Part shown: in pieces, positions 213 through 9,230 of the stretch
Layout of the letters: each line of letters starts with the position of its first letter
Position numbering within the stretch: position 1 is the stretch's first letter
Source: a virus
DNA length: 10,290 nucleotides
Virus genome (UHGV): UHGV-1550242
Strand: one strand, 5' to 3'
Notes under the pieces: model-generated
The model's database searches: none
Told to the model about the DNA's origin: nothing
The model's input: the letters and a program-made list of their open reading frames with translations, nothing else
Position numbers and translations under genes: made by a program

Positions 213-725
213 TCAACTTAGTTTTGCAAACTCTCCGTGGAGTTTAATAGCAGCTTCACAGTAAGCTTTATGGGCTTCTTCTTCCGTTGTGTATGTCCCT
301 ATATGCACTGTCTTGCCATTATGGTTAATCTGTGCTTTCCACTTACCAGATTTGCTTCTACTTGTACCTTTCAAGTTTTTTGATGTTCTAGGTTGTCTCC
401 TATTAGACATATTCTGTTCTTTTGTGGCCTCTCTAAGATTGTCCCAAGCATTATTCAAACCATCTCCATCTTTGTGGTCAATGTGTTTATCAGGCCACTT
501 ACCTGTCATCCAGAACCAAGCAATTCGGTGATTGCCTGTCCTGTATCCTAAAATCTGTGTGTGCATATACACACCAGACCTTGTGCGCTTAATTGCTCCG
601 GCTTGGCTTCCAATAACCACCCTACTACTATGTGGAGGTCTGCTAATCCATGTTAAGACCCCTGTTTCGGGGTCATAATCTAACCAAGATTTTAACTGTT
701 CATGTGTGAATCCACAATCTCTCAT
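213..725 (-). CDS. HNH homing endonuclease with N-terminal NUMOD4-like motif, HNH_3-type nuclease motif and C-terminal AP2-type DNA-binding domain
   Basis: Track ORF 213..728. I prefer the ATG at 725..723 over the TTG at 728..726. Translation shows LDYDPETGVLTWI (NUMOD4-like), HRIAW...HIDHKDGDGLNNAWDNLREAT (HNH_3-type motif) and SGKWKAQINHNGKTVHIGTYTTEEEAHKAY (AP2-like). GAGGT lies 6 nt upstream of the ATG, inside the polymerase 3' end. The ATG overlaps the polymerase TGA stop by 1 nt (TGATG). Confidence 0.85.
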   Translation of the reverse strand: MRDCGFTHEQLKSWLDYDPETGVLTWISRPPHSSRVVIGSQAGAIKRTRSGVYMHTQILGYRTGNHRIAWFWMTGKWPDKHIDHKDGDGLNNAWDNLREATKEQNMSNRRQPRTSKNLKGTSRSKSGKWKAQINHNGKTVHIGTYTTEEEAHKAYCEAAIKLHGEFAKLS

Positions 726-3424
726 CAATGTACCTCATACCACGACTTACCAACCTTACCAGTACCAGTTACCAGTGTTTCACTCTTTAGCCCTAAGTTC
801 TTAGAGGCTTGTCCGTAATACCAATCAGTGACAGCCTTCACCTCTGCCGTCATACTTTCTGGGCATTCCCAACTTGTCTCGTCGTGATAGGAGCACAATA
901 AACGAGCACCAATAGCTGGTTTACGCCCATTTAACTTCATCAAGCCTTCGTCAATCATACGACGGCAAGCAAGGTTAATTGCCTCATTTTGAATCTGAGC
1001 CTCTGAACCCATGAGCAAATAATTCAACAACTTATGTGGAGATTTACACCACAACCAAGCTCCAGCAACCTTTACAAAACCCCCTTTAGAGATTGCAGCA
1101 GTCTTACCAAACACCTCTTCAAGTGCCTTTTTAGTTGCTTTGTAGTCAGCTTCCAAGTCATCTAACAGCTTCTTAATTTTAGGCAAACGGATAAAGTAAG
1201 TCTGTTTAGTCAGCGCACCTTCCTGAGTAGTTGCAGCCTTAATCGTCTTAGCAAACTTCTCATCACCTGCACCGAACAGCAGTGCATAGATACCATTCTT
1301 AGCTTTCTTACGGCCTTTGCTAATCTCATGAAGAAGATTCTCATCCTGAGTAGCTCGACAAGTCAAGATATCCTGCTCATCATTCAAGCTAAAGTAAATA
1401 CTGTTCAATGTATGTGCATCAGTCCCTGAATAGACAACGTACAGGTCATTCTCAGAGTCATAGCGAAGGTACTTATCAATCTCTGGGTTGAGGTACTCAT
1501 CAAAATGTTTGCAGTAATAGCGTCCATCTTCTTGACGAATGAACTCAATTTCTTCTTTACCTTGCGTTACCGCTTTGGTGAAGTCTTTATCACCCATAAA
1601 GTTACAAAGAAGAACTAGCTGGGCTGAGTTCATATCTACAGAGACAACGTTAGTACCTTCCTCACAAATCCATACTGCCCTCATTGGTTCCCCATAGACA
1701 GCAGCACCAGACGGTACGTTTACAATACCATATTGTGTCATACGTCCAGTTGAAGTACCAAACACCATTGCACCAGCACTAAGGCGACCATCAGGACGAA
1801 TCTGGTTCAACCAACCTTTTTCATCATCCTTTGAGTTCTCAATAGTTCTGCGTCGGTGCATCAAAGTATAGTACTTAGCAATCTTCTGTCCAAGCTCACC
1901 TTCAATCGTATCATAAGATGATTCAGTAAGTTTTGGTGAAGTACGGATTAAGCAAGGCTCAAGCAAATCTGTGTACTTCTTCACAGACCAGTTATGCTCA
2001 ATGTACTGAACACCTTCATGTTCAACATAACTTAAACCACAACGTTCTACCATCTCCTGCCACTTAGGATGTTTTGTAATCATCTTTTTATTGTCTTTGA
2101 AACGACAAACTTTGACAGGGCGACCATCTGAGTCTTTCTTGTAGTTCCAGTCATCTGGAATCCAACCAACTGATTTCAAGTAGTCTTTAACAACTGCTAC
2201 CTGAGTCATACGAGAAACTTCAAACTCAATTGGTGTATATGGTGCATCAATCAAACCTGTGTAGCGACTCGACTCAAGCTCAAAGTGGTTAACAACATGA
2301 CTGTTATAGTACTTCACAGTTTTAACTGTTTTTACTGGCTTCCAGTCTTTGCATTTCTTACCAATCTTTGCATTCAACTCATTGCAAATTGCACGAGCAT
2401 CCTTCATTGCTACAAAGCCTTCCTTGTACTCTTCACCAGTTACGGAGTTGGTTGGTGTATAGCAATTTCTCTTTTCAATATTAAAAATCTTTGTAGTTGG
2501 CTTACCAAATGGTTTGATTTCGTATGTCTGCATCTCACCGTTACGTACCTGCTGACGGTACTTTGTCTTAGGGTACTTGGTAATTCTCTTCAGTCCATCT
2601 GCATGACCAAATGTTTCAACATACTCATTCCAAGCTTTTGCAAACTCTTCTCCAGTGACTTTACCTTTGGTCTTAATAGTTGGAGGTAAATGTGGTTCAA
2701 CCTCTGAAGCAAGCTCATTAGTCAACTTGTCAAGTTCCTTTACATGGAACTCCATAAGCTCTTTATCAGCTTTCCAACCATTGATAGCTTGCTGGCTCAT
2801 CCAGAAAGATGTTTCTTTAGCTCGCATGTAAGTTTCATAAGTGTCTATACCACACTTCTTAAGCTTGAGATACTCATTATCAAGTGCCCGTTTAGTTTTG
2901 GCGTTAATACGGATATCTTCTACAACACGAGTGAAGATTTCTGCATTCCACACACCCCAATGCTCAATCTCTGGTTTACGAACACCAACACGAGCACCCC
3001 ATGCAGCCAAGCCATGAGCACCTTTATAACCCTTTGGAGTTGGTCTATCCATCCACTGAACACGAGACTGGATAAGAGAGTCCTGAAAGAAATTACTCCA
3101 CGGTTTACACTTTGGATTATCAAAGTTCCATAAATCAGGTGCAATGTGATTGAAAACCCACCAGTCATAACCGAGACCATTATGGATGCAAAGACGTTTT
3201 GCCTTTAACGCAAACTCAATACCTTCACGTAAGCCACCCTTAATGTACTTGGTATACTTGTGACCGAGGATAGGTTCATCTGTAAAGACCCATACAGGCG
3301 GCTCTTCATCGTCAGATTTATAGTCTGCGAAAGCCATTACGTGCACTTTAGTGAACTCAAGGAGTAAACCATCAGTTTCTGTATCACCAACTAAATGTAA
3401 GTTTTTAAAATCTACGTTTTCCAT
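725..3424 (-). CDS. DNA polymerase, family A (T7 gp5-like), with N-terminal 3'-5' proofreading exonuclease domain
   Basis: Track ORF 725..3454. I prefer the internal start at 3424..3422 (MENVDF...) because GAGGGAG sits 5 nt upstream, whereas the ATG at 3454 has no Shine-Dalgarno. Motifs read by eye: Exo I VGDTETDG; GAHGLAAWGARVG (compare T7 GSHALEAWGYRLG); YTPIEFEV (T7 YTPVEHVV); motif A VDMNSAQLVLLCNFM (T7 DASGLELRCLAHFM); motif B RKKAKNGIYALLFGAGDEKF (T7 NAKTFIYGFLYGAGDEK); motif C SYHDETSWEC (T7 WVHDEIQVGC); C-terminus ...GKSWYEVH (T7 ...GPNWAICH). Confidence 0.9.
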   Translation of the reverse strand: MENVDFKNLHLVGDTETDGLLLEFTKVHVMAFADYKSDDEEPPVWVFTDEPILGHKYTKYIKGGLREGIEFALKAKRLCIHNGLGYDWWVFNHIAPDLWNFDNPKCKPWSNFFQDSLIQSRVQWMDRPTPKGYKGAHGLAAWGARVGVRKPEIEHWGVWNAEIFTRVVEDIRINAKTKRALDNEYLKLKKCGIDTYETYMRAKETSFWMSQQAINGWKADKELMEFHVKELDKLTNELASEVEPHLPPTIKTKGKVTGEEFAKAWNEYVETFGHADGLKRITKYPKTKYRQQVRNGEMQTYEIKPFGKPTTKIFNIEKRNCYTPTNSVTGEEYKEGFVAMKDARAICNELNAKIGKKCKDWKPVKTVKTVKYYNSHVVNHFELESSRYTGLIDAPYTPIEFEVSRMTQVAVVKDYLKSVGWIPDDWNYKKDSDGRPVKVCRFKDNKKMITKHPKWQEMVERCGLSYVEHEGVQYIEHNWSVKKYTDLLEPCLIRTSPKLTESSYDTIEGELGQKIAKYYTLMHRRRTIENSKDDEKGWLNQIRPDGRLSAGAMVFGTSTGRMTQYGIVNVPSGAAVYGEPMRAVWICEEGTNVVSVDMNSAQLVLLCNFMGDKDFTKAVTQGKEEIEFIRQEDGRYYCKHFDEYLNPEIDKYLRYDSENDLYVVYSGTDAHTLNSIYFSLNDEQDILTCRATQDENLLHEISKGRKKAKNGIYALLFGAGDEKFAKTIKAATTQEGALTKQTYFIRLPKIKKLLDDLEADYKATKKALEEVFGKTAAISKGGFVKVAGAWLWCKSPHKLLNYLLMGSEAQIQNEAINLACRRMIDEGLMKLNGRKPAIGARLLCSYHDETSWECPESMTAEVKAVTDWYYGQASKNLGLKSETLVTGTGKVGKSWYEVH

Positions 3425-3454
3425 TTTTACTCCCTCTAAAATCATTAACCTCAT

Positions 3455-3681
3455 ACATTACTGCAAAAAATTATAAAAAGCAAGTTGACAATGCACTTGA
3501 CAAGGTGTTAATCTTTGCGAAGTGGGTTTTTACTTAAAAGGTTACTTAACAGTTTAACTATACAGATACTTTAAAACTCTTAAAAGATTATTTAATAGCT
3601 TTTAAAAAGCTTTAAAGTATAACGTATAGAATACGTTAAGATAAAAGATTAAAACTTAATAGTTACTTAAAAGAGGCTTAC
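3455..3681. promoter_or_regulatory. Divergent AT-rich intergenic control region between the leftward polymerase gene and the rightward operon
   Basis: 227 bp of non-coding, very AT-rich sequence between divergent start codons (3424 minus, 3682 plus). Contains tandem TTGACAA boxes (3485-3491 and 3497-3503), a candidate -10 TAATCT at 3509-3514 (18-nt spacing from the first box), a minus-strand TATAAT (plus 3470-3475) upstream of the polymerase start, an 8-bp inverted repeat (3620-3638) and TTACTTAAAAG direct repeats. Exact promoter assignment is uncertain. Confidence 0.5.
3620..3638. promoter_or_regulatory. Inverted repeat TAACGTAT-aga-ATACGTTA (candidate operator or RNA hairpin)
   Basis: Perfect 8-bp arms at 3620-3627 and 3631-3638 with a 3-bp spacer. 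The core contains TAGAAT (3627-3632), the same hexamer used as -10 in the two clear promoters downstream. It lies 44 bp upstream of the ATG at 3682. Confidence 0.3.
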
Positions 3682-4104
3682 ATGCAGAAAATGTTTGTTC
3701 ACCCAGACATAGCTGACTTTGTTAGAGCTTTGCAGAAGTTGGAAGAACTTGACATTGCTGCTCAACGGGAATATGCTCACCATCACAGGAGGATGGTTGA
3801 TATACAACATGAAATAGAGTTGTCTGAAAACTATGAAGATGACTTAAAATGCTCTGTATTTGAGCATATGAAAGATGTTGCTACAGCGAGACGCAAAGCT
3901 AAAGACACAGTTGCTTTACTAGATTCTCTTAAAAAGAGGTTGCAAAGTGGTACAGACCTGTGTAATCTAGCGTCACTGATTAACGATGTTGAAACTTCTT
4001 GGGATAGGCACTATTATCCACGTTCTGAAAAGACACTTGACTTTTCTTCATCCGAAAACTTAAAATGTTCTAGAAAGAAACTTAACCAACTGAGAGAGAA
4101 ATAA
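3682..4104 (+). CDS. Hypothetical protein (140 aa), first gene of the rightward operon
   Basis: Track ORF. AAGAGG at 3671-3676, 5 nt upstream of the ATG. Stop TAA at 4102-4104 lies 1 nt before the next ATG at 4106. No recognisable motif; the sequence looks mostly helical and charged. Confidence 0.6.
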   Translation: MQKMFVHPDIADFVRALQKLEELDIAAQREYAHHHRRMVDIQHEIELSENYEDDLKCSVFEHMKDVATARRKAKDTVALLDSLKKRLQSGTDLCNLASLINDVETSWDRHYYPRSEKTLDFSSSENLKCSRKKLNQLREK

Positions 4105-4105
4105 T

Positions 4106-4906
4106 ATGAATATCGATGTAGAAAAGATGCTTGAAGAGAAAGGTGTTGATGAAGCATTCTTAATCAATGCCGTAGAAAGCATGGCTATGATTCTTCGTGG
4201 TAATAACTACACAGAACAGTTTATGCCTGCAAGCTATAACTTGCCTGAAGACAAGTCTGATAACGGTGCTTTTGCAGAACAGGTTAATATGATGTTGACA
4301 GACACTACACTTGCTCTGGCATCTATTGCGGTTGGTGTTGATGCACTTGCTGAGTTCATTTTTTATGAAATGCAAAAGAATGACTATATCAGGATGTCAG
4401 ACGAAGATAAGGAACTGTTGCTGACTAAGGACACTGATTTCATTATTGATACGCTTATCTCATCAACGAGTGCTGTAATGGCTGCTCTTGAGAAGCGAAT
4501 GGAAGAGAAGTTGTCACGATATGAAAAACTTGATTGGGGTGTAGAAGAACTAAGCCCACGAATCAAAGAGATTATCCAGCAAACTAAAGATTCTTTGGAA
4601 GAAGCTGTTGAAAATGACTCTGTAGCTGATATAGAGCCACTTCAGGTGAAAGTTGCACTGATGATTCCAGCTATCTCTACGATGATGAATATTGTTGCAC
4701 TAATCCAACTTTCACAGATGATGGGTGTGAGTATTGAGTTCATTGAAGAGATGACTGGTGGCGTTAGTATGCAAGCAATCAATGATGTTTTGGTGAACAT
4801 TGGCGCTTCAATCATTGAAGAGAAACTACGCATTAACTTCGGTGATGATTTTGTGAAGCAAATCTCAGCTATGGCTGAAAAAGAGTCTGCTGAGCAACTG
4901 CACTAA
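4106..4906 (+). CDS. Hypothetical strongly acidic protein (266 aa)
   Basis: Track ORF. GAGAGAGAA at 4092-4100 precedes the ATG at 4106. My manual count gives roughly 50 Asp+Glu against roughly 20 Lys+Arg (approximate). Antisense ORFs within it (4160..4375, 4384..4566, 4642..4833) are treated as shadows. No family recognised. Confidence 0.65.
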   Translation: MNIDVEKMLEEKGVDEAFLINAVESMAMILRGNNYTEQFMPASYNLPEDKSDNGAFAEQVNMMLTDTTLALASIAVGVDALAEFIFYEMQKNDYIRMSDEDKELLLTKDTDFIIDTLISSTSAVMAALEKRMEEKLSRYEKLDWGVEELSPRIKEIIQQTKDSLEEAVENDSVADIEPLQVKVALMIPAISTMMNIVALIQLSQMMGVSIEFIEEMTGGVSMQAINDVLVNIGASIIEEKLRINFGDDFVKQISAMAEKESAEQLH

Positions 4907-4924
4907 GTCTTTATAAATCTTACA

Positions 4925-4948
4925 AGCCTCCTTAGTTGGGGGCTTTTT
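4925..4948 (+). terminator. Intrinsic (Rho-independent) terminator hairpin
   Basis: AGCCTCC (4925-4931), loop TTAGTT, GGGGGCT (4938-4944): a 7-bp stem with one G-U pair, followed by TTTT (4945-4948). It lies between the 266-aa gene stop and the dNMP kinase ribosome-binding site. Confidence 0.6.
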
Positions 4949-4967
4949 AGTAATTAAGGGAGATAAA

Positions 4968-5711
4968 ATGAGTAATATTATTGCATTTACTGGAAAGGCA
5001 CGTTCTGGAAAAGACACCTCATGTTCTATTGTGAAGAATATCTTAGAGGATGAATACGGCTATAATGTTGAAGTAATGGCCTTTGCAGACAACCTTAAAC
5101 TATCTGCATCAAAGATATTTGACTTGACTTGGAATGACCTGTACGGTGAAACTAAAGAGACTCCACAGGTTTTTGACTTATCATATCCTGAACTGATGTT
5201 TAAAGTTACGGAAGCTATGGAGTTCACCTTCAGAGATGAACGTTACCATATGGACTTCAAGCTTATGTCAGAGTTAACCGGACGATTAATCATGGAGCTT
5301 AAGAAGGTTGCTAAACCGACTCTATTGACACGTCTGGGGTTTAGTAAAAAGTATAAATTCTCATCAAGACAAATTCAACAGATTTGGGGTACTGAAGTTG
5401 TCCGTAAAGTAATGGGCGACAAGTTCTGGTCTAAAGACCTTGAAAAAAGAATGGTTAGATTCCATGAAATGTGCTCACTTAGAAATCAATATGGTTTTGT
5501 CTTAATCAGTGATTTAAGATTTGACTCTGAAGCTGAATGGCTGAGTAGATTTGCACACCAAACTATTGAAGTAAAAAGAGACAATGTGGACAAAGTTTCA
5601 TCACATGTTTCAGAAAATGGGATTTCTACAAAATATGAGCGTGACATTATTCATAATAATGGTACTCTTGCAGACCTTGAGAACAAGCTAAGAGCCATCA
5701 TTAAAGTTTAA
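4968..5711 (+). CDS. Deoxynucleoside monophosphate kinase (T4 gp1-like P-loop kinase)
   Basis: Track ORF. AAGGGAG 5 nt upstream of the ATG. Walker A IAFTGKARSGKDTS matches T4 gp1 LSGVKRSGKDTT as I recall it. Further collinear similarity: RQIQQIWGTEVV (T4 RRLMQALGTDLI), DLRFDSEAEW (T4 DTRQDHEMDA) and a C-terminal NNGTLADLENKL (T4 NDGSLEELFSKI). Confidence 0.7.
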   Translation: MSNIIAFTGKARSGKDTSCSIVKNILEDEYGYNVEVMAFADNLKLSASKIFDLTWNDLYGETKETPQVFDLSYPELMFKVTEAMEFTFRDERYHMDFKLMSELTGRLIMELKKVAKPTLLTRLGFSKKYKFSSRQIQQIWGTEVVRKVMGDKFWSKDLEKRMVRFHEMCSLRNQYGFVLISDLRFDSEAEWLSRFAHQTIEVKRDNVDKVSSHVSENGISTKYERDIIHNNGTLADLENKLRAIIKV

Positions 5712-5719
5712 AAGAGAGA

Positions 5720-5920
5720 ATGAAGATGAGAGTAAAAGATAATTTTAAAGTTATTGACCATCGTTTAGTGGAACTCTCATCTCTTTCCAATGAGGTAATG
5801 ATTGAACGTCTTAAGAGAGTTGAATCACGAAGGAAAGAGATTGCAGATGAGATTCATGAACTGGACAAGATTGAAAATGGATTGAAGGCAGAACTACAAC
5901 GAAGAGGTGCTAATGTCTAA
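5720..5920 (+). CDS. Hypothetical small protein (66 aa; 64 aa if it starts at the ATG at 5726), predicted coiled coil
   Basis: Track ORF. AGAGAGA directly abuts the ATG at 5720, so the ATG at 5726 may be the real start. The 3' end overlaps the primase-helicase start by 8 nt (ATGTCTAA), suggesting translational coupling. No motif recognised. Confidence 0.45.
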   Translation: MKMRVKDNFKVIDHRLVELSSLSNEVMIERLKRVESRRKEIADEIHELDKIENGLKAELQRRGANV

Positions 5921-7898
5921 AGGTCGTAAATTGAAAGAGGCTGGTCAGTTTGTTGGTCATTGTGCATGTCCACGTTGTGGTTCATCAGATGCTGGTTCAA
6001 TCTACCATCACGACGATGATTCTTATTCAATGACTTGCTTTAGTTGTAATAAAGGTTTCCCAGAGTGGGATTTTGATAAAGGACAAATTGTGAGCACTTA
6101 TTCTACTGGTTCAGATAATAAAAACCGTACTTTCCGTGGAATGGATTTAGACGATGTAAAAGAAAACCTTGAAGCAATGGACTTGAAAGACAGGAAGATT
6201 CCTGCAAAAGTTCTTGAACGCTTAGGTATCAAGGTTGACATTGACAGTGATGGTGAAATTGATGCACATTTCTATCCGACTTACAAACGTAATGAAGATG
6301 GCAAACTAGAACATGTTGGCTACCGTGTTCGTCACCGTTACCCAGAGGACCATCCAAAAGAACACCTACGTGGTAAGCTAAAAGACTTTTCAGGTGGTGT
6401 TGGAGACATTAAAGGTGAACTGGCAATGTTCGGTTCATGGATTGCTCCAGAAGGTGGCAACCGTCTATTCATCTGGGAAGGTGAGATGGAATGTGCTACG
6501 GCAATCTACATGACTTCTCTGGCAATTAAAGATAAGTCTCGTCGTAAGAACTACTGTCACGTATCTGTTCCATCGGGTGCAAACATTAAGTCTATCAAAG
6601 ACAACTATCAGTACATCACATCATTTGATGAGATTTACTTGTGCTTTGATAACGATGAAGCAGGTGCTAAAGCTACCAAAGAGGCTGCTGGTATCCTTCC
6701 GATTGAGAAGGTTCGTTTATTCCAGTATCCAGAAGGTGTAAAAGACCTTAATGAATGGTGGACAAAGTTCTATAAAGAGAAAGACACAGTTCTGGAAGGA
6801 TTTAAGCAGCGTATCTACAATGCACCTCGTTACTGTCCTGCTGGTATCAAGAACTTTGCAGACGGTTTTGAGGCAATGAAGAATCGTGGTCAGATTCCAT
6901 TGATTCCTTTCCCAGAATCTTTCGGGGATTTGAACAGATTGACTTATGGTGGTTACGGTTTAGGTGAGATTACGACTATTGCAGCCCCATCTTCGGTAGG
7001 TAAGTCAGCTTACACTCGTGAGATGATTTATTCAGCTTGGAAAGAAACTGATTATAATATCGGTGTAATTCCTGTAGAAGATACCTATGAAGAGTTGATG
7101 GAGATGCTCTGTGCAATCCACCTAAGCAAGCAGATTTCTGAGATTCCTTATGATGAACGAGATTGGGATGAATTAAAGGGAGCACACGCAGAGCTTTCAA
7201 AAGGTCGTCGCATCCATATCGTTGACCATCAAGGGGCGATTGACCAAGATAACCTGCTGGAGTTTGTTGACTATCTTGTTAACAGTTTAGACTGTAAGAT
7301 TATTATTCTTGACCCTATTACATTGGCTCTGTCACGTTCTGATACGGATGAAGAGGAAGTCTTGTCTGAACTATTGCGTCGTTGCAAACGCTACCAGTAT
7401 GCACAGGTAAACGTTTGTCACGTTCGTAAGAGTGCAGGTGGTCAGAAAGCTAACTCTGAAGGTGGAGATATCTCTGAAGAGGATATTAAGGGTTCTGGTG
7501 CGTATTTCCAGATTTCCATGAACAACATTCTGTTAATGCGTAACAAGGTTGACCCAGACCCTGTTAAGAAAAACTTGACAAAAATCAAGTTAACTAAGTG
7601 TCGTCGTCATGGTAAGTCAACAGGTATTGCTGGTCATACTTGGTACAATCCAGACACAGGACGTCTTATCAAAGCTTCTGGATGTGGTGTTGACATTGAT
7701 GGTGCAGCAGAAAATATTCGTCAACAGTTTGGTATTGGTGAAGCTGAAGACCATTATGACGACTCTTTACCTCATTATGAAGATGAAGTGTTTGACCGTG
7801 AGACTGGTGAAGTCTATACTGAAGAACAGCGTCAAAGCTCAACGATTCCACCTGTATTAAGTGAGGATGCAGATGACTGCCCGTTTGAAACTGAGTGA
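5913..7898 (+). CDS. Bifunctional DNA primase-helicase (T7 gp4-like: zinc ribbon, TOPRIM primase, DnaB-family helicase)
   Basis: Track ORF 5907..7898 begins at a GTG. I prefer the ATG at 5913 with AAGAGG at 5901-5906. Cys4 zinc ribbon CPRCGSSD...CFSCN (T7 CDNCGSSD...CYVC); TOPRIM WEGEMECATAIYM and LCFDNDEAGAKATKEAAGILP (T7 TEGEIDMLTVMEL and MFDMDEAGRKAVEEAAQVLP); Walker A APSSVGKSAYT; Walker B KIIILDPITLALS (T7 DVIILDHISIVVS); KCRRHGKSTGIAGHTWYNPDTGRL (T7 [23 protein letters not shown]); acidic C-terminus ...SEDADDCPFETE. Confidence 0.9.
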   Translation: MSKGRKLKEAGQFVGHCACPRCGSSDAGSIYHHDDDSYSMTCFSCNKGFPEWDFDKGQIVSTYSTGSDNKNRTFRGMDLDDVKENLEAMDLKDRKIPAKVLERLGIKVDIDSDGEIDAHFYPTYKRNEDGKLEHVGYRVRHRYPEDHPKEHLRGKLKDFSGGVGDIKGELAMFGSWIAPEGGNRLFIWEGEMECATAIYMTSLAIKDKSRRKNYCHVSVPSGANIKSIKDNYQYITSFDEIYLCFDNDEAGAKATKEAAGILPIEKVRLFQYPEGVKDLNEWWTKFYKEKDTVLEGFKQRIYNAPRYCPAGIKNFADGFEAMKNRGQIPLIPFPESFGDLNRLTYGGYGLGEITTIAAPSSVGKSAYTREMIYSAWKETDYNIGVIPVEDTYEELMEMLCAIHLSKQISEIPYDERDWDELKGAHAELSKGRRIHIVDHQGAIDQDNLLEFVDYLVNSLDCKIIILDPITLALSRSDTDEEEVLSELLRRCKRYQYAQVNVCHVRKSAGGQKANSEGGDISEEDIKGSGAYFQISMNNILLMRNKVDPDPVKKNLTKIKLTKCRRHGKSTGIAGHTWYNPDTGRLIKASGCGVDIDGAAENIRQQFGIGEAEDHYDDSLPHYEDEVFDRETGEVYTEEQRQSSTIPPVLSEDADDCPFETE

Positions 7899-8154
7899 TA
7901 GTTATAAAAGAGAGGGGTTCATACCCTTCTTTGAAGAAAAAAGTTTAAATGAATTTCAGGAAGAGTGTTTGACAAAGGTTGATAGGTTCTATAGAATGCT
8001 CTACATGAAATGTGATGGAGGCGTTGAGGTAGAAGAAAAGTTCCATCACAGTATGATAACAGTCACTATTACTATACCTCGACATAATATTGGTTGGCTG
8101 TTTATAATTAAAGAAAATGTGTTTGAATATCAAGTATATCGGAGAATATCATGA
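7873..8154 (+). CDS. Hypothetical small ORF, start uncertain (93 aa from ATG 7873; alternative 49 aa from ATG 8005)
   Basis: Track ORF 7861..8154 begins at a GTG inside the primase-helicase 3' end. The ATG at 7873 has GAGGA 5 nt upstream but overlaps the helicase end, and the ORF would contain promoter P1. The in-frame ATG at 8005 sits at the predicted P1 transcription start and has no Shine-Dalgarno. Stop TGA at 8152-8154 overlaps the next ATG (ATGA). It may be non-coding leader. Confidence 0.25.
   Translation: MTARLKLSDSYKREGFIPFFEEKSLNEFQEECLTKVDRFYRMLYMKCDGGVEVEEKFHHSMITVTITIPRHNIGWLFIIKENVFEYQVYRRIS
7969..7997 (+). promoter_or_regulatory. Sigma70-type promoter P1: TTGACA (7969-7974), 17-nt spacer, TAGAAT (7992-7997)
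   Basis: Consensus -35 hexamer, 17-nt spacing and a -10 with the key positions. Flanks match promoter P2 (TGTTTGACAA ... TAGAAT). The predicted transcription start is about 8004-8005, directly at an ATG (8005). Confidence 0.55.
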
Positions 8155-8300
8155 AACACTCTAAAGCATTTGAACAAGTTTTTGGGGATTCCTTAAAAGC
8201 CACTGCTGGTAAACCAGCAAAATACTATGAAGAGAAGCGTGTAAGAACTGGAAAAACTGCACGTAAAACAGCTTCTAAAGATAAGCACAACTTCCAGTAA
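8151..8300 (+). CDS. Hypothetical small lysine-rich protein (49 aa)
   Basis: Not in the ORF track (below its length cutoff). ATG at 8151 with GGAGA at 8141-8145 (5-nt spacing). My translation: MKHSKAFEQVFGDSLKATAGKPAKYYEEKRVRTGKTARKTASKDKHNFQ, stop TAA at 8298-8300. It fills the otherwise unassigned gap before promoter P2. Confidence 0.45.
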   Translation: MKHSKAFEQVFGDSLKATAGKPAKYYEEKRVRTGKTARKTASKDKHNFQ

Positions 8301-8372: not shown

Positions 8373-9230
8373 ATGTCTAAAGTTGTTAAAATGAAAGCTC
8401 CGGTAGAGAAGTACAATGGTACTGAACGTCAAACTCTGCGTTACCTTCTGAAAGATGTTTGGTTTTATTACCTGAACACTTCACCACGTCCGGGAAAAGG
8501 TAAATCTATTGATAAGAAATTCCCAGGCAAAGATTGTAACTACAGTGTTTCAATTCTGGCAGAAGATGGTAACAAGCTGTTTAAAGAGTTTACTAAGTCT
8601 AAGAAAAACCCAGAAGGTTGGGATAAAGTTACTACTGAAGCAGTTGATGCAGATGACTTCGAAGAGAAGTTTGGTTGCAAACCACCATTTGAAGCAGACA
8701 CTTACTACATCTTGAAAGTAAGTCGTGCAGCAGCTTATAAAGATGGTGCTGTGTGGACAGCTAAACAGTCATTCCCTGTAATGCTTATTGAAGAAGTAAA
8801 TGGTAAGCGTGTAGCTGTTAAGCAGCCGATGAAGAAAATCAAAGCTCAAGCATCTGATAAACATGAAGATGATAAGAACTATGATGTAATTCATCCAGAT
8901 ATTGCAGTTGGCAACGGTTCTTTTGGTAGTGTGATTCTTTCTACTCACTTCTACACTTTTGAGAACAATGTTCTGACAAAACCTATTCAGGAACAGTTTA
9001 TCATTGATACTCTTGTACCTTACACTGGTGGTAACGGTGCTAACGGTGAACCTGAACTGGATGAAGACGAACTGGCTATGCTTGGTCTTGATGGTGTCGA
9101 AGATAACGGTGAAATCACTGAAGAAGACGCAACAGACCACAAACCTTCTAACGGTTCTGATGATGGTGACGATGAAGATTTGCCAGACCCAGATGACGAA
9201 GAAGATGAAGACTTCGATACAGAAGACTAA
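8373..9230 (+). CDS. Hypothetical protein (285 aa); candidate ssDNA-binding protein with acidic C-terminal tail (T7 gp2.5-like role)
   Basis: Track ORF with its own promoter and ribosome-binding site. The N-terminal two thirds are lysine-rich and globular-looking. The last ~60 residues are an Asp/Glu-rich, low-complexity tail ending ...DPDDEEDEDFDTED, with a Phe near the terminus, as in the T7 gp2.5 tail (...EEADEDGDF). The gene sits between primase-helicase and exonuclease. The confidence given is for the functional call; confidence that this is a real gene is higher (about 0.85). Confidence 0.45.
   Translation: MSKVVKMKAPVEKYNGTERQTLRYLLKDVWFYYLNTSPRPGKGKSIDKKFPGKDCNYSVSILAEDGNKLFKEFTKSKKNPEGWDKVTTEAVDADDFEEKFGCKPPFEADTYYILKVSRAAAYKDGAVWTAKQSFPVMLIEEVNGKRVAVKQPMKKIKAQASDKHEDDKNYDVIHPDIAVGNGSFGSVILSTHFYTFENNVLTKPIQEQFIIDTLVPYTGGNGANGEPELDEDELAMLGLDGVEDNGEITEEDATDHKPSNGSDDGDDEDLPDPDDEEDEDFDTED

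What the first reader, a model, noticed from the sequence alone, without database searches (positions are those of the whole stretch)
3682..4906. Two uncharacterised genes head the replication operon; the second is strongly acidic
The first two genes transcribed rightward (140 aa and 266 aa) match nothing I recognise. They are translationally linked (stop at 4104, ATG at 4106) and are separated from the dNMP kinase by a terminator hairpin. The 266-aa product is strongly acidic by my manual count (about 50 Asp+Glu, about 20 Lys+Arg). First-in-operon, family-less proteins in phage early or middle regions are where host-takeover factors, DNA mimics and anti-defence proteins tend to be found. That placement is the only basis for the suggestion; I have no direct evidence of function.
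Basis: partly seen in the sequence, partly recalled or inferred. Interest (0 to 1): 0.55.

Follow-up and report, generated by a model that had tools for sequence, protein, structure and literature searches.

The report
Conserved phage gene pair, function unknown
Two real but uncharacterised genes of a Felix O1-like phage form a conserved two-gene unit beside the replication genes; one is almost invariant, while the other is acidic, fast-evolving, of unmatched predicted fold and wrongly labelled "minor tail protein" in databases.

Summary
ORFs 3682-4104 (140 aa) and 4106-4906 (266 aa; 50 Asp+Glu, 21 Lys+Arg, pI 4.2, net -29) exist, lie 1 nt apart, and are followed by an intrinsic terminator.

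The window is a Felixounavirus. The genes are Felix O1 gp97 and gp98 (PHROG 4039 and 4251).

The two genes evolve in opposite ways:
- **ORF140** is a core gene, present in every lineage examined, with dN/dS 0.03.
- **ORF266** diverges fastest of the genes compared (43% identity where the polymerase keeps 95%). It keeps its acidity but not the acidic positions, is missing in Yersinia phage P778, and is frameshifted in some assemblies.

The layout (promoter, repeat-rich leader, ORF140, acidic ~260-aa gene, terminator) is conserved across lineages.

The "minor tail protein" label is unsupported by published virion data.

The best guess, at low confidence, is two non-enzymatic binding proteins: ORF140 a core regulator or organiser, ORF266 an accessory acidic host-facing binder.

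The parts
3485..3514 (+). Candidate early sigma-70-type promoter: -35 TTGACA at 3485-3490, an 18-nt spacer, and an extended -10 TGtTAATCT at 3506-3514. A second invariant TTGACA lies at 3497-3502.
   Evidence: Read from the sequence. The same coordinates are annotated as a promoter in AYO145A (locus 6006-6035 equals window 3485-3514). The block AAAGCAAGTTGACA...CTTGACAAGGTG is invariant and the adjoining stretch to ...CGAAGTGGGTTT nearly so in five lineages. The tool's own consensus scan did not report it because the -10 hexamer matches only 3 of 6, so this is an inference.
3520..3681 (+). AT-rich leader (the whole 3455-3681 intergenic region is 26% GC) with six copies of the near-palindromic motif CTTWAMAG, starting at 3533, 3545, 3579, 3610, 3655 and 3666. 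It also contains the strong Shine-Dalgarno sequence AAGAGG.
   Evidence: 15 matches in the window against 5.6 expected, six of them here. Motif positions are conserved in SUSP2, Mordin, L038 and L045. The motif is also present in the Pectobacterium, Erwinia and Yersinia relatives. This is the densest 200-bp window for the motif, and the lowest-GC window, in the whole Felix O1 genome. It has the lowest nucleotide diversity of the 6 kb compared.
3682..4104 (+). ORF140, equal to Felix O1 gp97, Bas63 gp48 and phrog_4039. It is a core Ounavirinae protein with a helical hairpin (residues 8-47 and 53-88) and a conserved C-terminal segment W..R.Y.PR..K.LDF...L..SR.
   Evidence: 33 invariant positions across homologues of 43-75% identity; pLDDT 82; dN/dS 0.03.
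4106..4906 (+). ORF266, equal to Felix O1 gp98, Bas63 gp49 and phrog_4251. It is an acidic (pI 4.2), Met-rich (19 Met), all-alpha protein of 13 helices. The database label "minor tail protein" is unsupported.
   Evidence: (pLDDT 85, pTM 0.85).
4382..4465 (+). Hypervariable patch of ORF266 (codons 93-120), with two main allele classes within the genus.
   Evidence: Nucleotide diversity peaks at 0.21 in 4401-4500. Here pN is 0.20 and dN/dS 0.29, against 0.07-0.23 elsewhere in the gene.
4924..4948 (+). Intrinsic terminator: an 8-bp GC-rich stem, a 6-nt loop and a T-run. It closes the two-gene unit, 20 nt before the dNMP kinase start codon.
   Evidence: An equivalent hairpin plus T-run follows the second gene in all 11 lineages examined, with different stem sequences. 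It is annotated in AYO145A and Mordin.

Best explanation
**Shown**
- The two ORFs are expressed genes of a Felix O1-like myophage (gp97 and gp98).
- They form a cassette conserved across the subfamily: early promoter, a roughly 160-nt leader with a CTTWAMAG repeat array, ORF140, an acidic gene of about 260 aa that is tightly packed or overlapping with it, then an intrinsic terminator. This sits just upstream of the dNMP kinase and the T7-like primase/helicase.
- Neither protein resembles any known family in sequence or predicted fold.
- ORF266 has no pattern of catalytic-type invariant residues.
- ORF266 is not a virion protein.

**Inferred**
- Both are probably non-enzymatic binding proteins. 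Because the terminator attenuates downstream transcription, they are likely made in larger amounts than the downstream replication enzymes.
- They have different jobs.
  - ORF140 is a core component. It works without ORF266, since Yersinia phage P778 keeps it alone. It most likely acts in phage DNA replication or transcription control, by binding a conserved partner or nucleic acid.
  - ORF266 is an accessory, rapidly evolving polyanionic helical protein. It most likely acts as a host-facing binder, a decoy or inhibitor for a basic, nucleic-acid-binding host protein such as a nuclease, a defence protein or a nucleoid protein. Its general negative surface matters more than the exact positions of the acidic residues.
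For: **Identity and synteny.**

**Cassette architecture.** The terminator is conserved in 11 lineages with different stem sequences. The leader and promoter are conserved.

**ORF140 is a core gene.**
- It is present in all lineages examined.
- It has 33 invariant residues.
- Its dN/dS is 0.03.

**ORF266 looks accessory and fast-evolving.**
- It is 43% and 39% identical to its SUSP2 and Mordin counterparts, where the polymerase is 95% and 93% identical.
- It has the highest dN and nucleotide diversity among the genes compared.
- The gene is absent in phage P778.
- Frameshifted alleles occur in EC6 and in a Logan lineage whose truncated product is seen in 3 contigs.
- The family is tiny: only 10 representatives among 1.84 billion proteins.
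- Net charge is kept at -14 to -29 across the family, but only 11 columns are consistently acidic and only 7 positions are invariant.
- The same slot in more distant phages holds acidic proteins (pI 4.5-4.8) of 253-283 aa. One such group is remotely homologous: hhalign probability 76%, P 2e-5, collinear over the full length, with a reversed-sequence control of P 0.7.

**No known fold or family.**

**Not in the virion.** The Felix O1 mass-spectrometry list lacks gp98. The main text of the Bas63 cryo-EM study, which models 22 of at least 23 gene products, never mentions gp49.

**Expression.** Felix O1 ORFs 96-99 and 101 all peak at 25 min by RT-PCR.
Against: - There is no direct functional evidence of any kind.
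- The charge density of ORF266 (-0.11 per residue) is about half that recalled for classical DNA mimics such as Ocr. This comparison is from memory.
- No structural match to any mimic or anti-defence protein was found.
- dN/dS is below 1 everywhere, including the hypervariable patch (0.29). Positive selection typical of an arms race is therefore not demonstrated.
- Rapid divergence could simply reflect weak structural constraint.
- Tight packing with ORF140 and strict synteny with the replisome genes fit a replication role equally well.
- The RT-PCR timing (maximum at 25 min) is the same as for most Felix O1 genes and does not mark the pair as immediate-early.
- The frameshifted alleles may be assembly errors. 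The cryo-EM authors suspect the EC6 portal and long-tail-fibre sequences of being incomplete.
Confidence: 0.35

Rival explanations
1. Replication or early-switch organiser pair. ORF140, as a dimer, binds the near-palindromic CTTWAMAG arrays in the AT-rich divergent region, which would be an origin or operator. ORF266 is its acidic adaptor, linking it to the T7-like replisome. In that replisome the acidic tails of the primase/helicase and ORF285 suggest electrostatic docking on the basic polymerase. The arrangement would be analogous to the lambda O/P genes sitting next to their iterons.
For: - The arrays lie immediately upstream of ORF140 in every lineage.
- This is the lowest-GC and motif-densest site in the Felix O1 genome. 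A second array region shows 11-bp phasing.
- This DNA is the least variable of the 6 kb compared.
- Synteny with the polymerase, dNMP kinase and primase/helicase is strict.
- The pair shares an expression class with those genes.
- ORF140 has many invariant polar and basic residues, including H35, D40, Q42, H43, E44, E46, R70, R71, K74 and R109.
Against: - No DNA-binding fold was recognised in ORF140.
- ORF140 homologues are neutral to acidic (pI 5.5-6.7), which is unusual for a DNA binder.
- The phage has another annotated transcriptional regulator that could bind the arrays (ORF85).
- ORF266 is missing in P778 and diverges far faster than the replisome it would have to dock on.
- T7-type helicases load themselves. 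This point is from general knowledge.
Confidence: 0.25
2. ORF140 is a lambda-Gam-like inhibitor of the host RecBCD nuclease that protects the linear phage genome ends.
For: - Its size is similar to lambda Gam (140 vs 138 aa) and it is helical.
- Weak profile matches all fall in the same register: phrog_259 "gam-like" in 3 of 33 family members (best E 0.0019), Pfam Gam PF06064 in 1 of 33 (E 0.0053), and hhalign aligning residues 31-61 with Gam 55-85.
- No RecBCD inhibitor is annotated in the Felix O1 record.
Against: - None of the matches is significant after allowing for 33 queries. The hhalign P is 0.06, and the scores are far below Pfam's threshold.
- The invariant motif VDxQHExELS has no counterpart in Gam.
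- The Gam family in the phage collection is too narrow (mostly above 80% identity) to build a better profile.
Confidence: 0.07
3. ORF266 is a minor tail (virion) protein, as labelled in most GenBank/RefSeq records and in PHROGs.
For: The label "minor tail protein" appears in the majority of the listed records and in phrog_4251. The Bas63 cryo-EM map contains one unassigned helical density at the tip of the tail puncture apparatus.
Against: - Felix O1 virion mass spectrometry identified 17 structural proteins and gp98 is not among them.
- The main text of the Bas63 cryo-EM study never mentions gp49, and it attributes the unassigned density to a gene of the baseplate module.
- The gene sits in the replication cluster, about 10 kb from the structural module.
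- It shares its expression class with the polymerase and primase, not the 60-min late class of the tail genes.
- No fold similarity to any tail protein was found.
- The wV8 paper, apparently the source of the label, reports no such identification in the part read (part 1 of 2).
Confidence: 0.02

Closest known systems
Felix O1 gp97 (NP_944959) and gp98 (NP_944960); Bas63 gp48 and gp49; PHROG 4039 and 4251
   Same: These are the same protein families. ORF140 is 100% and ORF266 97% identical to the Felix O1 proteins, with the same position and order.
   Different: Nothing differs. These database entries carry no experimentally supported function, and the "minor tail protein" label on gp98 is unsupported.
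DNA-mimic anti-restriction proteins (T7 Ocr, ArdA)
   Same: Like them, ORF266 is acidic, helical, non-enzymatic-looking, cytoplasmic, and encoded in an early or middle, promoter-proximal gene.
   Different: - ORF266 is about twice as large and about half as charge-dense (comparison values recalled from memory).
- Its acidic positions are not conserved: 11 consistently acidic columns out of 37-50 acidic residues per protein.
- No fold similarity was found.
- No target is known.
Lambda Gam (RecBCD inhibitor, PF06064)
   Same: ORF140 has a similar length and helical character, and shows weak profile matches in a consistent register.
   Different: The matches are statistically insignificant, ORF140's invariant motif is not shared, and ORF140 is not acidic.
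Lambda O/P-type initiator plus adaptor gene pairs next to iterons
   Same: Two adjacent, tightly packed genes lie next to an AT-rich repeat array at the head of the replication genes.
   Different: There is no sequence or fold relationship. DNA binding by ORF140 is untested, and the downstream helicase is of the T7 gp4 type.
PHROG 2717 (unknown function)
   Same: 32 of 33 ORF140 family members match it (best E 4e-7), with ORF140 residues 36-116 aligning to profile positions 92-176 of 193. This is the only reproducible remote relative found.
   Different: It is a longer protein (193 positions) of unknown function, and its member phages could not be identified with the tools at hand.

Membership tests
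PHROG 4251 / Felix O1 gp98 family | Full-length profile match | tested here: met
   E 3e-145, residues 2-265 against profile positions 1-264 of 266; 97.4% identity to Felix O1.
PHROG 4039 / Felix O1 gp97 family | Full-length profile match | tested here: met
   E 3e-83, residues 1-140 against 1-140; 100% identity to Felix O1.
Minor tail protein (virion structural protein) | Presence in purified virions | tested here: not met
   Literature only. The Felix O1 virion mass-spectrometry list lacks gp98. gp49 is not mentioned in the main text of the Bas63 cryo-EM study.
Minor tail protein (virion structural protein) | Location in the structural module, late expression, or a tail-protein fold | tested here: not met
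   The gene lies in the replication cluster. Its expression peaks at 25 min together with the polymerase. No tail-protein fold match was found.
DNA-mimic proteins (Ocr/ArdA type) | A conserved surface array of carboxylates imitating DNA phosphates | tested here: inconclusive
   Net charge is conserved at -14 to -29, but only 11 columns are at least 80% acidic. The surface geometry of the model could not be analysed because no coordinates were available.
DNA-mimic proteins (Ocr/ArdA type) | Structural similarity to a known mimic | tested here: not met
DNA-mimic proteins (Ocr/ArdA type) | Binding and inhibition of a DNA-binding enzyme | not testable with these tools
   This needs pull-down and activity assays.
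Lambda Gam (PF06064) | Profile match above Pfam's gathering score | tested here: not met
   Only 1 of 33 family members matched, at E 0.0053. The hhalign P was 0.06.
Lambda Gam (PF06064) | RecBCD inhibition | not testable with these tools
   This needs genetic or biochemical assays.
Known anti-phage-defence-related or CRISPR proteins (PADLOC) | A profile match shared by family members | tested here: not met
   The Csn2 hit (E 2.6e-4, below cut-off) is seen in only 1 of 14 members and is taken as chance.
Intrinsic (rho-independent) terminator | A GC-rich hairpin followed by a T-run, at the end of a transcription unit | tested here: met
   The feature is present after the second gene in all 11 lineages examined, with different stem sequences.

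The most novel reading that the evidence does not exclude
The cassette is a two-part early control module, not yet recognised as such, that is shared by the Ounavirinae lineages examined. ORF140 would be the sequence-specific binder of the phased, near-palindromic CTTWAMAG arrays and would define the replication origin or early-to-middle switch of Felix O1-like phages. ORF266 would be a new-fold polyanionic inhibitor of a host nuclease or defence protein, evolving quickly to track host variation.
Probability: 0.12. Interest if true: 0.65.

Novelty: new variant of a known kind. Interest (0 to 1): 0.4.

Why it matters
Felix O1-like phages are widely used for Salmonella typing, biocontrol and phage therapy. 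Yet the published Felix O1 genome paper states that their temporal regulation is unknown, and it reports no replication origin.

- **ORF140** is among the most constrained genes in the compared region, and it sits beside the most conserved non-coding DNA of that region. That makes it a priority target for finding the missing regulator or initiator.
- **ORF266** has a confidently predicted fold with no specific match in the PDB or among predicted viral structures. It is acidic, variable and probably dispensable, which is the profile of a candidate host-interaction factor.

There is also a practical point. The "minor tail protein" label is propagated through many of the roughly 260 related genome records, and into PHROGs under the "tail" category. 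It appears to be an annotation error and should be corrected.

Tried and rejected
- **Family searches.** Pfam, NCBIfam, PADLOC and PHROGs scans of single proteins and of whole alignments gave no consistent family other than each protein's own PHROG and phrog_2717.
- **Csn2 hit for ORF266.** Rejected, because only 1 of 14 members matched.
- **PDB sequence searches with profiles.** Nothing found.
- **Foldseek against BFVD for ORF266.** Only its own family was hit.
- **Profile search of 1.84 billion representative proteins.** Only ORF266's own family, 10 hits.
- **Lambda Gam lead for ORF140.** The register is consistent but the matches are insignificant, and the Gam family is too narrow for a better profile.
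- **Finding members of phrog_2717.** A permissive tblastn search failed.
- **Internal repeats in ORF266.** None found.
- **Rfam on 3400-5000.** Nothing found.
- **Leader RNA structure.** Only mildly better than shuffled sequences, z -2.05.
- **Positive selection in the hypervariable patch.** Not supported, dN/dS 0.29.
- **Homology of the Erwinia-phage slot protein to ORF266.** Not detected, P 0.15.
- **Per-gene essentiality of Bas63 genes 48 and 49.** The PhageMaP study text does not mention them and its supplements are not held. Two other essentiality studies do not include this phage group.
- **DRT7 trigger.** The DRT7 trigger in Bas63 is gene 035, not these genes.
- **Sequence test of ORF285 as a T7 gp2.5-like single-strand-binding protein.** Nothing found.
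Full report
**Identity of the window.** The 1.5 kb around the finding is about 98% identical to many Escherichia and Salmonella Felix O1-like myophages (Felixounavirus, Ounavirinae), such as Andreotti, EC6 and AYO145A.

The window encodes the following genes:

| Coordinates | Strand | Gene |
|---|---|---|
| 213-728 | - | HNH-AP2 endonuclease |
| 725-3454 | - | family-A DNA polymerase |
| 3455-3681 | | 227-nt divergent intergenic region |
| 3682-4104 | + | ORF140 |
| 4106-4906 | + | ORF266 |
| 4968-5711 | + | dNMP kinase |
| 5720-5920 | + | 66-aa ORF |
| 5907-7898 | + | T7 gp4-like primase/helicase |
| 7861-8154 | + | 97-aa ORF |
| 8151-8300 | + | 49-aa ORF |
| 8373-9230 | + | ORF285 |

In Felix O1 itself the two genes are ORF97 (gp97) and ORF98 (gp98). 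In the BASEL phage Bas63 they are bas63_0048 and bas63_0049.

**Checking the observation.**
- The coordinates, lengths and 1-nt spacing (TAA-T-ATG) are correct.
- ORF266 has 50 Asp+Glu and 21 Lys+Arg, pI 4.20 and net charge -29. ORF140 is near neutral.
- The hairpin between ORF266 and the kinase is a canonical intrinsic terminator at 4924-4948.
- Both ORFs are real genes. They are conserved across many lineages and are under purifying selection, with dN/dS 0.03 and 0.15 among 22 Felixounavirus genomes.
- There are two caveats. The primase/helicase (-27) and ORF285 (-26) are also strongly negative, so acidity alone is not exceptional in this window. The proteins are also not family-less in the strict sense: they are phrog_4039 and phrog_4251.

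**Searches for a known relative.**
- Pfam, NCBIfam and PADLOC gave nothing meaningful. Scanning every member of the family alignments gave no consistent family. The only tempting hit, Csn2 for ORF266, occurs in 1 of 14 members and is chance.
- Profile searches of PDB sequences were empty.
- A profile HMM of ORF266 homologues, searched against 1.84 billion representative proteins, found only 10 proteins, all from its own family.
- The AlphaFold2 models are confident. ORF266 has pLDDT 85 and pTM 0.85, with 13 helices. ORF140 has pLDDT 82, with a long helical hairpin at 8-47 and 53-88 plus short helices.
- Foldseek against predicted viral structures hit only ORF266's own family.
- The one reproducible remote link is ORF140 to phrog_2717, matched by 32 of 33 members with best E 4e-7. 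That family also has no known function.

**The two genes evolve in opposite ways.**

*ORF140:*
- It is 100% identical in most Felixounavirus records.
- It is 75% identical in Suspvirus, 62% in Mooglevirus and 44-57% in Erwinia, Pectobacterium, Yersinia and metagenomic relatives.
- It has 33 invariant positions, including Y31, H35, the VDxQHExELS motif, RRxxKDT and W..R.Y.PR..K.LDF.

*ORF266:*
- It is 85-99% identical within the genus but only 43% in SUSP2 and 39% in Mordin. In those same phages the polymerase is 95% and 93% identical and the primase/helicase 96% and 92%.
- BLAST cannot detect it in the Pectobacterium and Erwinia phages.

*Within the genus:*
- Nucleotide diversity is lowest over the intergenic region and the 5' part of ORF140 (0.003-0.015). 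It jumps to its maximum, 0.21, inside ORF266 at 4401-4500.
- That hypervariable patch (codons 93-120) exists as two main allele classes. Its dN/dS is 0.29, so positive selection is not shown.

*Composition of the ORF266 family:*
- Net charge is maintained at -14 to -29, but only 11 alignment columns are consistently acidic and only seven positions are invariant (K12, E24, N33, G77, K240, G246, F249).
- This points to a binding or physico-chemical role rather than an enzyme.
- The window protein is also unusually Met-rich, with 19 Met residues.

**The cassette is conserved.** In every relative examined, the polymerase is read leftward and the ORF140 homologue rightward. A tightly packed or overlapping gene of 253-283 aa and pI 4.2-4.8 follows, then the dNMP kinase and the primase/helicase.

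With better profiles, the Felixounavirus-type proteins and the Pectobacterium/metagenomic type align collinearly over their full length. The hhalign probability is 76% and P is 2e-5, against P 0.7 for a reversed-sequence control. Most members of both groups end in a C-terminal His or Gln. They are therefore probably one very fast-evolving family. The Erwinia version could not be linked (P 0.15).

An intrinsic terminator follows this second gene in all 11 lineages, with different stem sequences. The terminator's function is thus conserved rather than its sequence. The pair forms its own bicistronic unit, and the downstream replication enzymes must depend on read-through.

The exception is informative. 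Yersinia phage vB_YenM_P778 has the ORF140 homologue overlapping the dNMP kinase start directly, with no second gene. Its ORF140 is the only one of 33 that lacks the otherwise conserved W107.

Two assemblies carry frameshifted ORF266 alleles, leaving an ORF that starts at M89:
- EC6 has a +G insertion near codon 86.
- A Logan lineage has a -1 deletion near codon 67, and its truncated product is seen in three contigs.
- These suggest dispensability, but they could be assembly errors. The cryo-EM authors suspect the EC6 portal and long-tail-fibre sequences of being incomplete.

**The database label.** Most records, and PHROGs, call ORF266 a "minor tail protein". I found no support for this.
- The Felix O1 virion proteome lists 17 proteins without gp98.
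- The part of the wV8 proteome paper that I read (part 1 of 2) identifies only the tail fibre.
- The Bas63 cryo-EM study models 22 of at least 23 virion gene products. Its main text never mentions gp49, and it notes other mis-annotations in the genus.
- Felix O1 RT-PCR places ORFs 96, 97, 98, 99 and 101 together in the 25-min class, not with the 60-min tail genes.

**The upstream control region.**
- The promoter block is nearly invariant in five lineages whose ORF266 proteins are only 30-43% identical. It consists of TTGACA at 3485-3490, a second TTGACA at 3497-3502, and the extended -10 TGtTAATCT. It coincides with a promoter annotated in AYO145A.
- The roughly 160-nt leader carries six copies of the near-palindromic motif CTTWAMAG. 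The copy positions are conserved across genera.
- In the complete Felix O1 genome this is both the densest 200-bp window for the motif and the lowest-GC window. A second array region lies in a 1.6-kb non-coding gap at 12.3-13.9 kb, where some adjacent copies are spaced 11 bp apart.
- This looks like a protein-binding array, either an operator or an origin. Which protein binds it is unknown. ORF140 is a candidate purely by adjacency.

**Interpretation.** The architecture, the evolutionary pattern, the absence of any known fold or family, and the absence from published virion proteomes are established. The function is inferred.

I favour, at about 0.35, a split reading:
- ORF140 is a core, non-enzymatic regulator or organiser of the intracellular replication and transcription programme.
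- ORF266 is an accessory polyanionic binder directed at a variable, probably host, target.

The main rival, at about 0.25, is that both are parts of a replication-initiation or organiser module acting at the repeat array. A lambda-Gam-like role for ORF140 rests on weak matches in a consistent register and is only a lead, at about 0.07. The tail-protein reading is essentially excluded.

**Verdict.** This is a real and correctly described feature. Its conserved architecture and the contrast between the two genes are unusual, and the predicted fold of ORF266 has no specific match. It remains functionally unassigned. Interest is moderate, at 0.4. It is a good experimental target and an annotation correction, not a demonstrated new system.

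Noticed in passing
window 3520-3681; Felix O1 (L041) 12300-13930: There are arrays of the near-palindromic 8-mer CTTWAMAG. Six copies lie in the ORF140 leader, with positions conserved across genera. A second, larger array region lies in a 1.6-kb non-coding gap of Felix O1, where some adjacent copies are spaced 11 bp apart. This is a candidate protein-binding array (operator, origin or packaging-related) with no known binder.
   Followed up: partly
window 3400-3800: This stretch has the lowest nucleotide diversity (0.003-0.015) of the 6 kb compared among 22 Felixounavirus genomes. Synonymous divergence in ORF140 (dS 0.08) is 3-5 times lower than in neighbouring genes. That suggests constraint at the DNA or RNA level, or a recent sweep.
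   Followed up: partly
window 8373-9230 (ORF285) and 5907-7898 (primase/helicase): Both proteins end in strongly acidic tails that contain an aromatic residue (...EDEDFDTED and ...DADDCPFETE). From memory, this resembles the C-terminal tails of T7 gp2.5 and gp4 that dock on the polymerase. ORF285 (phrog_3877, unknown function) may be the phage single-strand-binding protein, but a PDB sequence search found nothing.
   Followed up: partly
L039 (Yersinia phage vB_YenM_P778) 4001-5184: This is the only relative examined in which the ORF140 homologue is followed directly by the dNMP kinase (4-nt overlap), with no acidic second gene and no terminator. Its ORF140 alone lacks the conserved W107.
   Followed up: partly
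L002 (Erwinia phage SunLIRen) 5452-6859: Erwinia Kolesnikviruses carry two acidic genes in the slot: gp115 (187 aa, pI 4.5) and gp116 (283 aa, pI 4.5). Neither is detectably related to ORF266.
   Followed up: partly
L046 (EC6) 301-1111; L047 1238-2049: ORF266 is split by different frameshifts in EC6 (+G near codon 86) and in a Logan metagenomic lineage (-1 near codon 67). Both leave an ORF starting at M89. These are either real dispensability or assembly errors.
   Followed up: partly
window 5720-5920 (orf66): This small gene between the kinase and the primase/helicase is also extremely conserved: 2 protein variants in 22 genomes, dN/dS 0.01, dS 0.075. Its end overlaps the GTG start called for the primase/helicase ORF (5907).
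   Followed up: no
public records MG065664 and MG065668 (Campylobacter phage A132 and A126); Staphylococcus phage SA1: The two Campylobacter-phage records are about 98% identical in DNA to this E. coli/Salmonella Felixounavirus region. Staphylococcus phage SA1 carries an ORF266 homologue that is 88% identical in protein. They are probably contaminant or mislabelled records.
   Followed up: no
window 213-728: An HNH-AP2 homing-type endonuclease gene overlaps the 3' end of the polymerase gene by 4 nt. Related phages carry a homing or HNH endonuclease at the same place (Bas63, SUSP2), on the other side of the polymerase (SunLIRen), or none there (AYO145A, Mordin, Wc4). This is consistent with a mobile element.
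   Followed up: no
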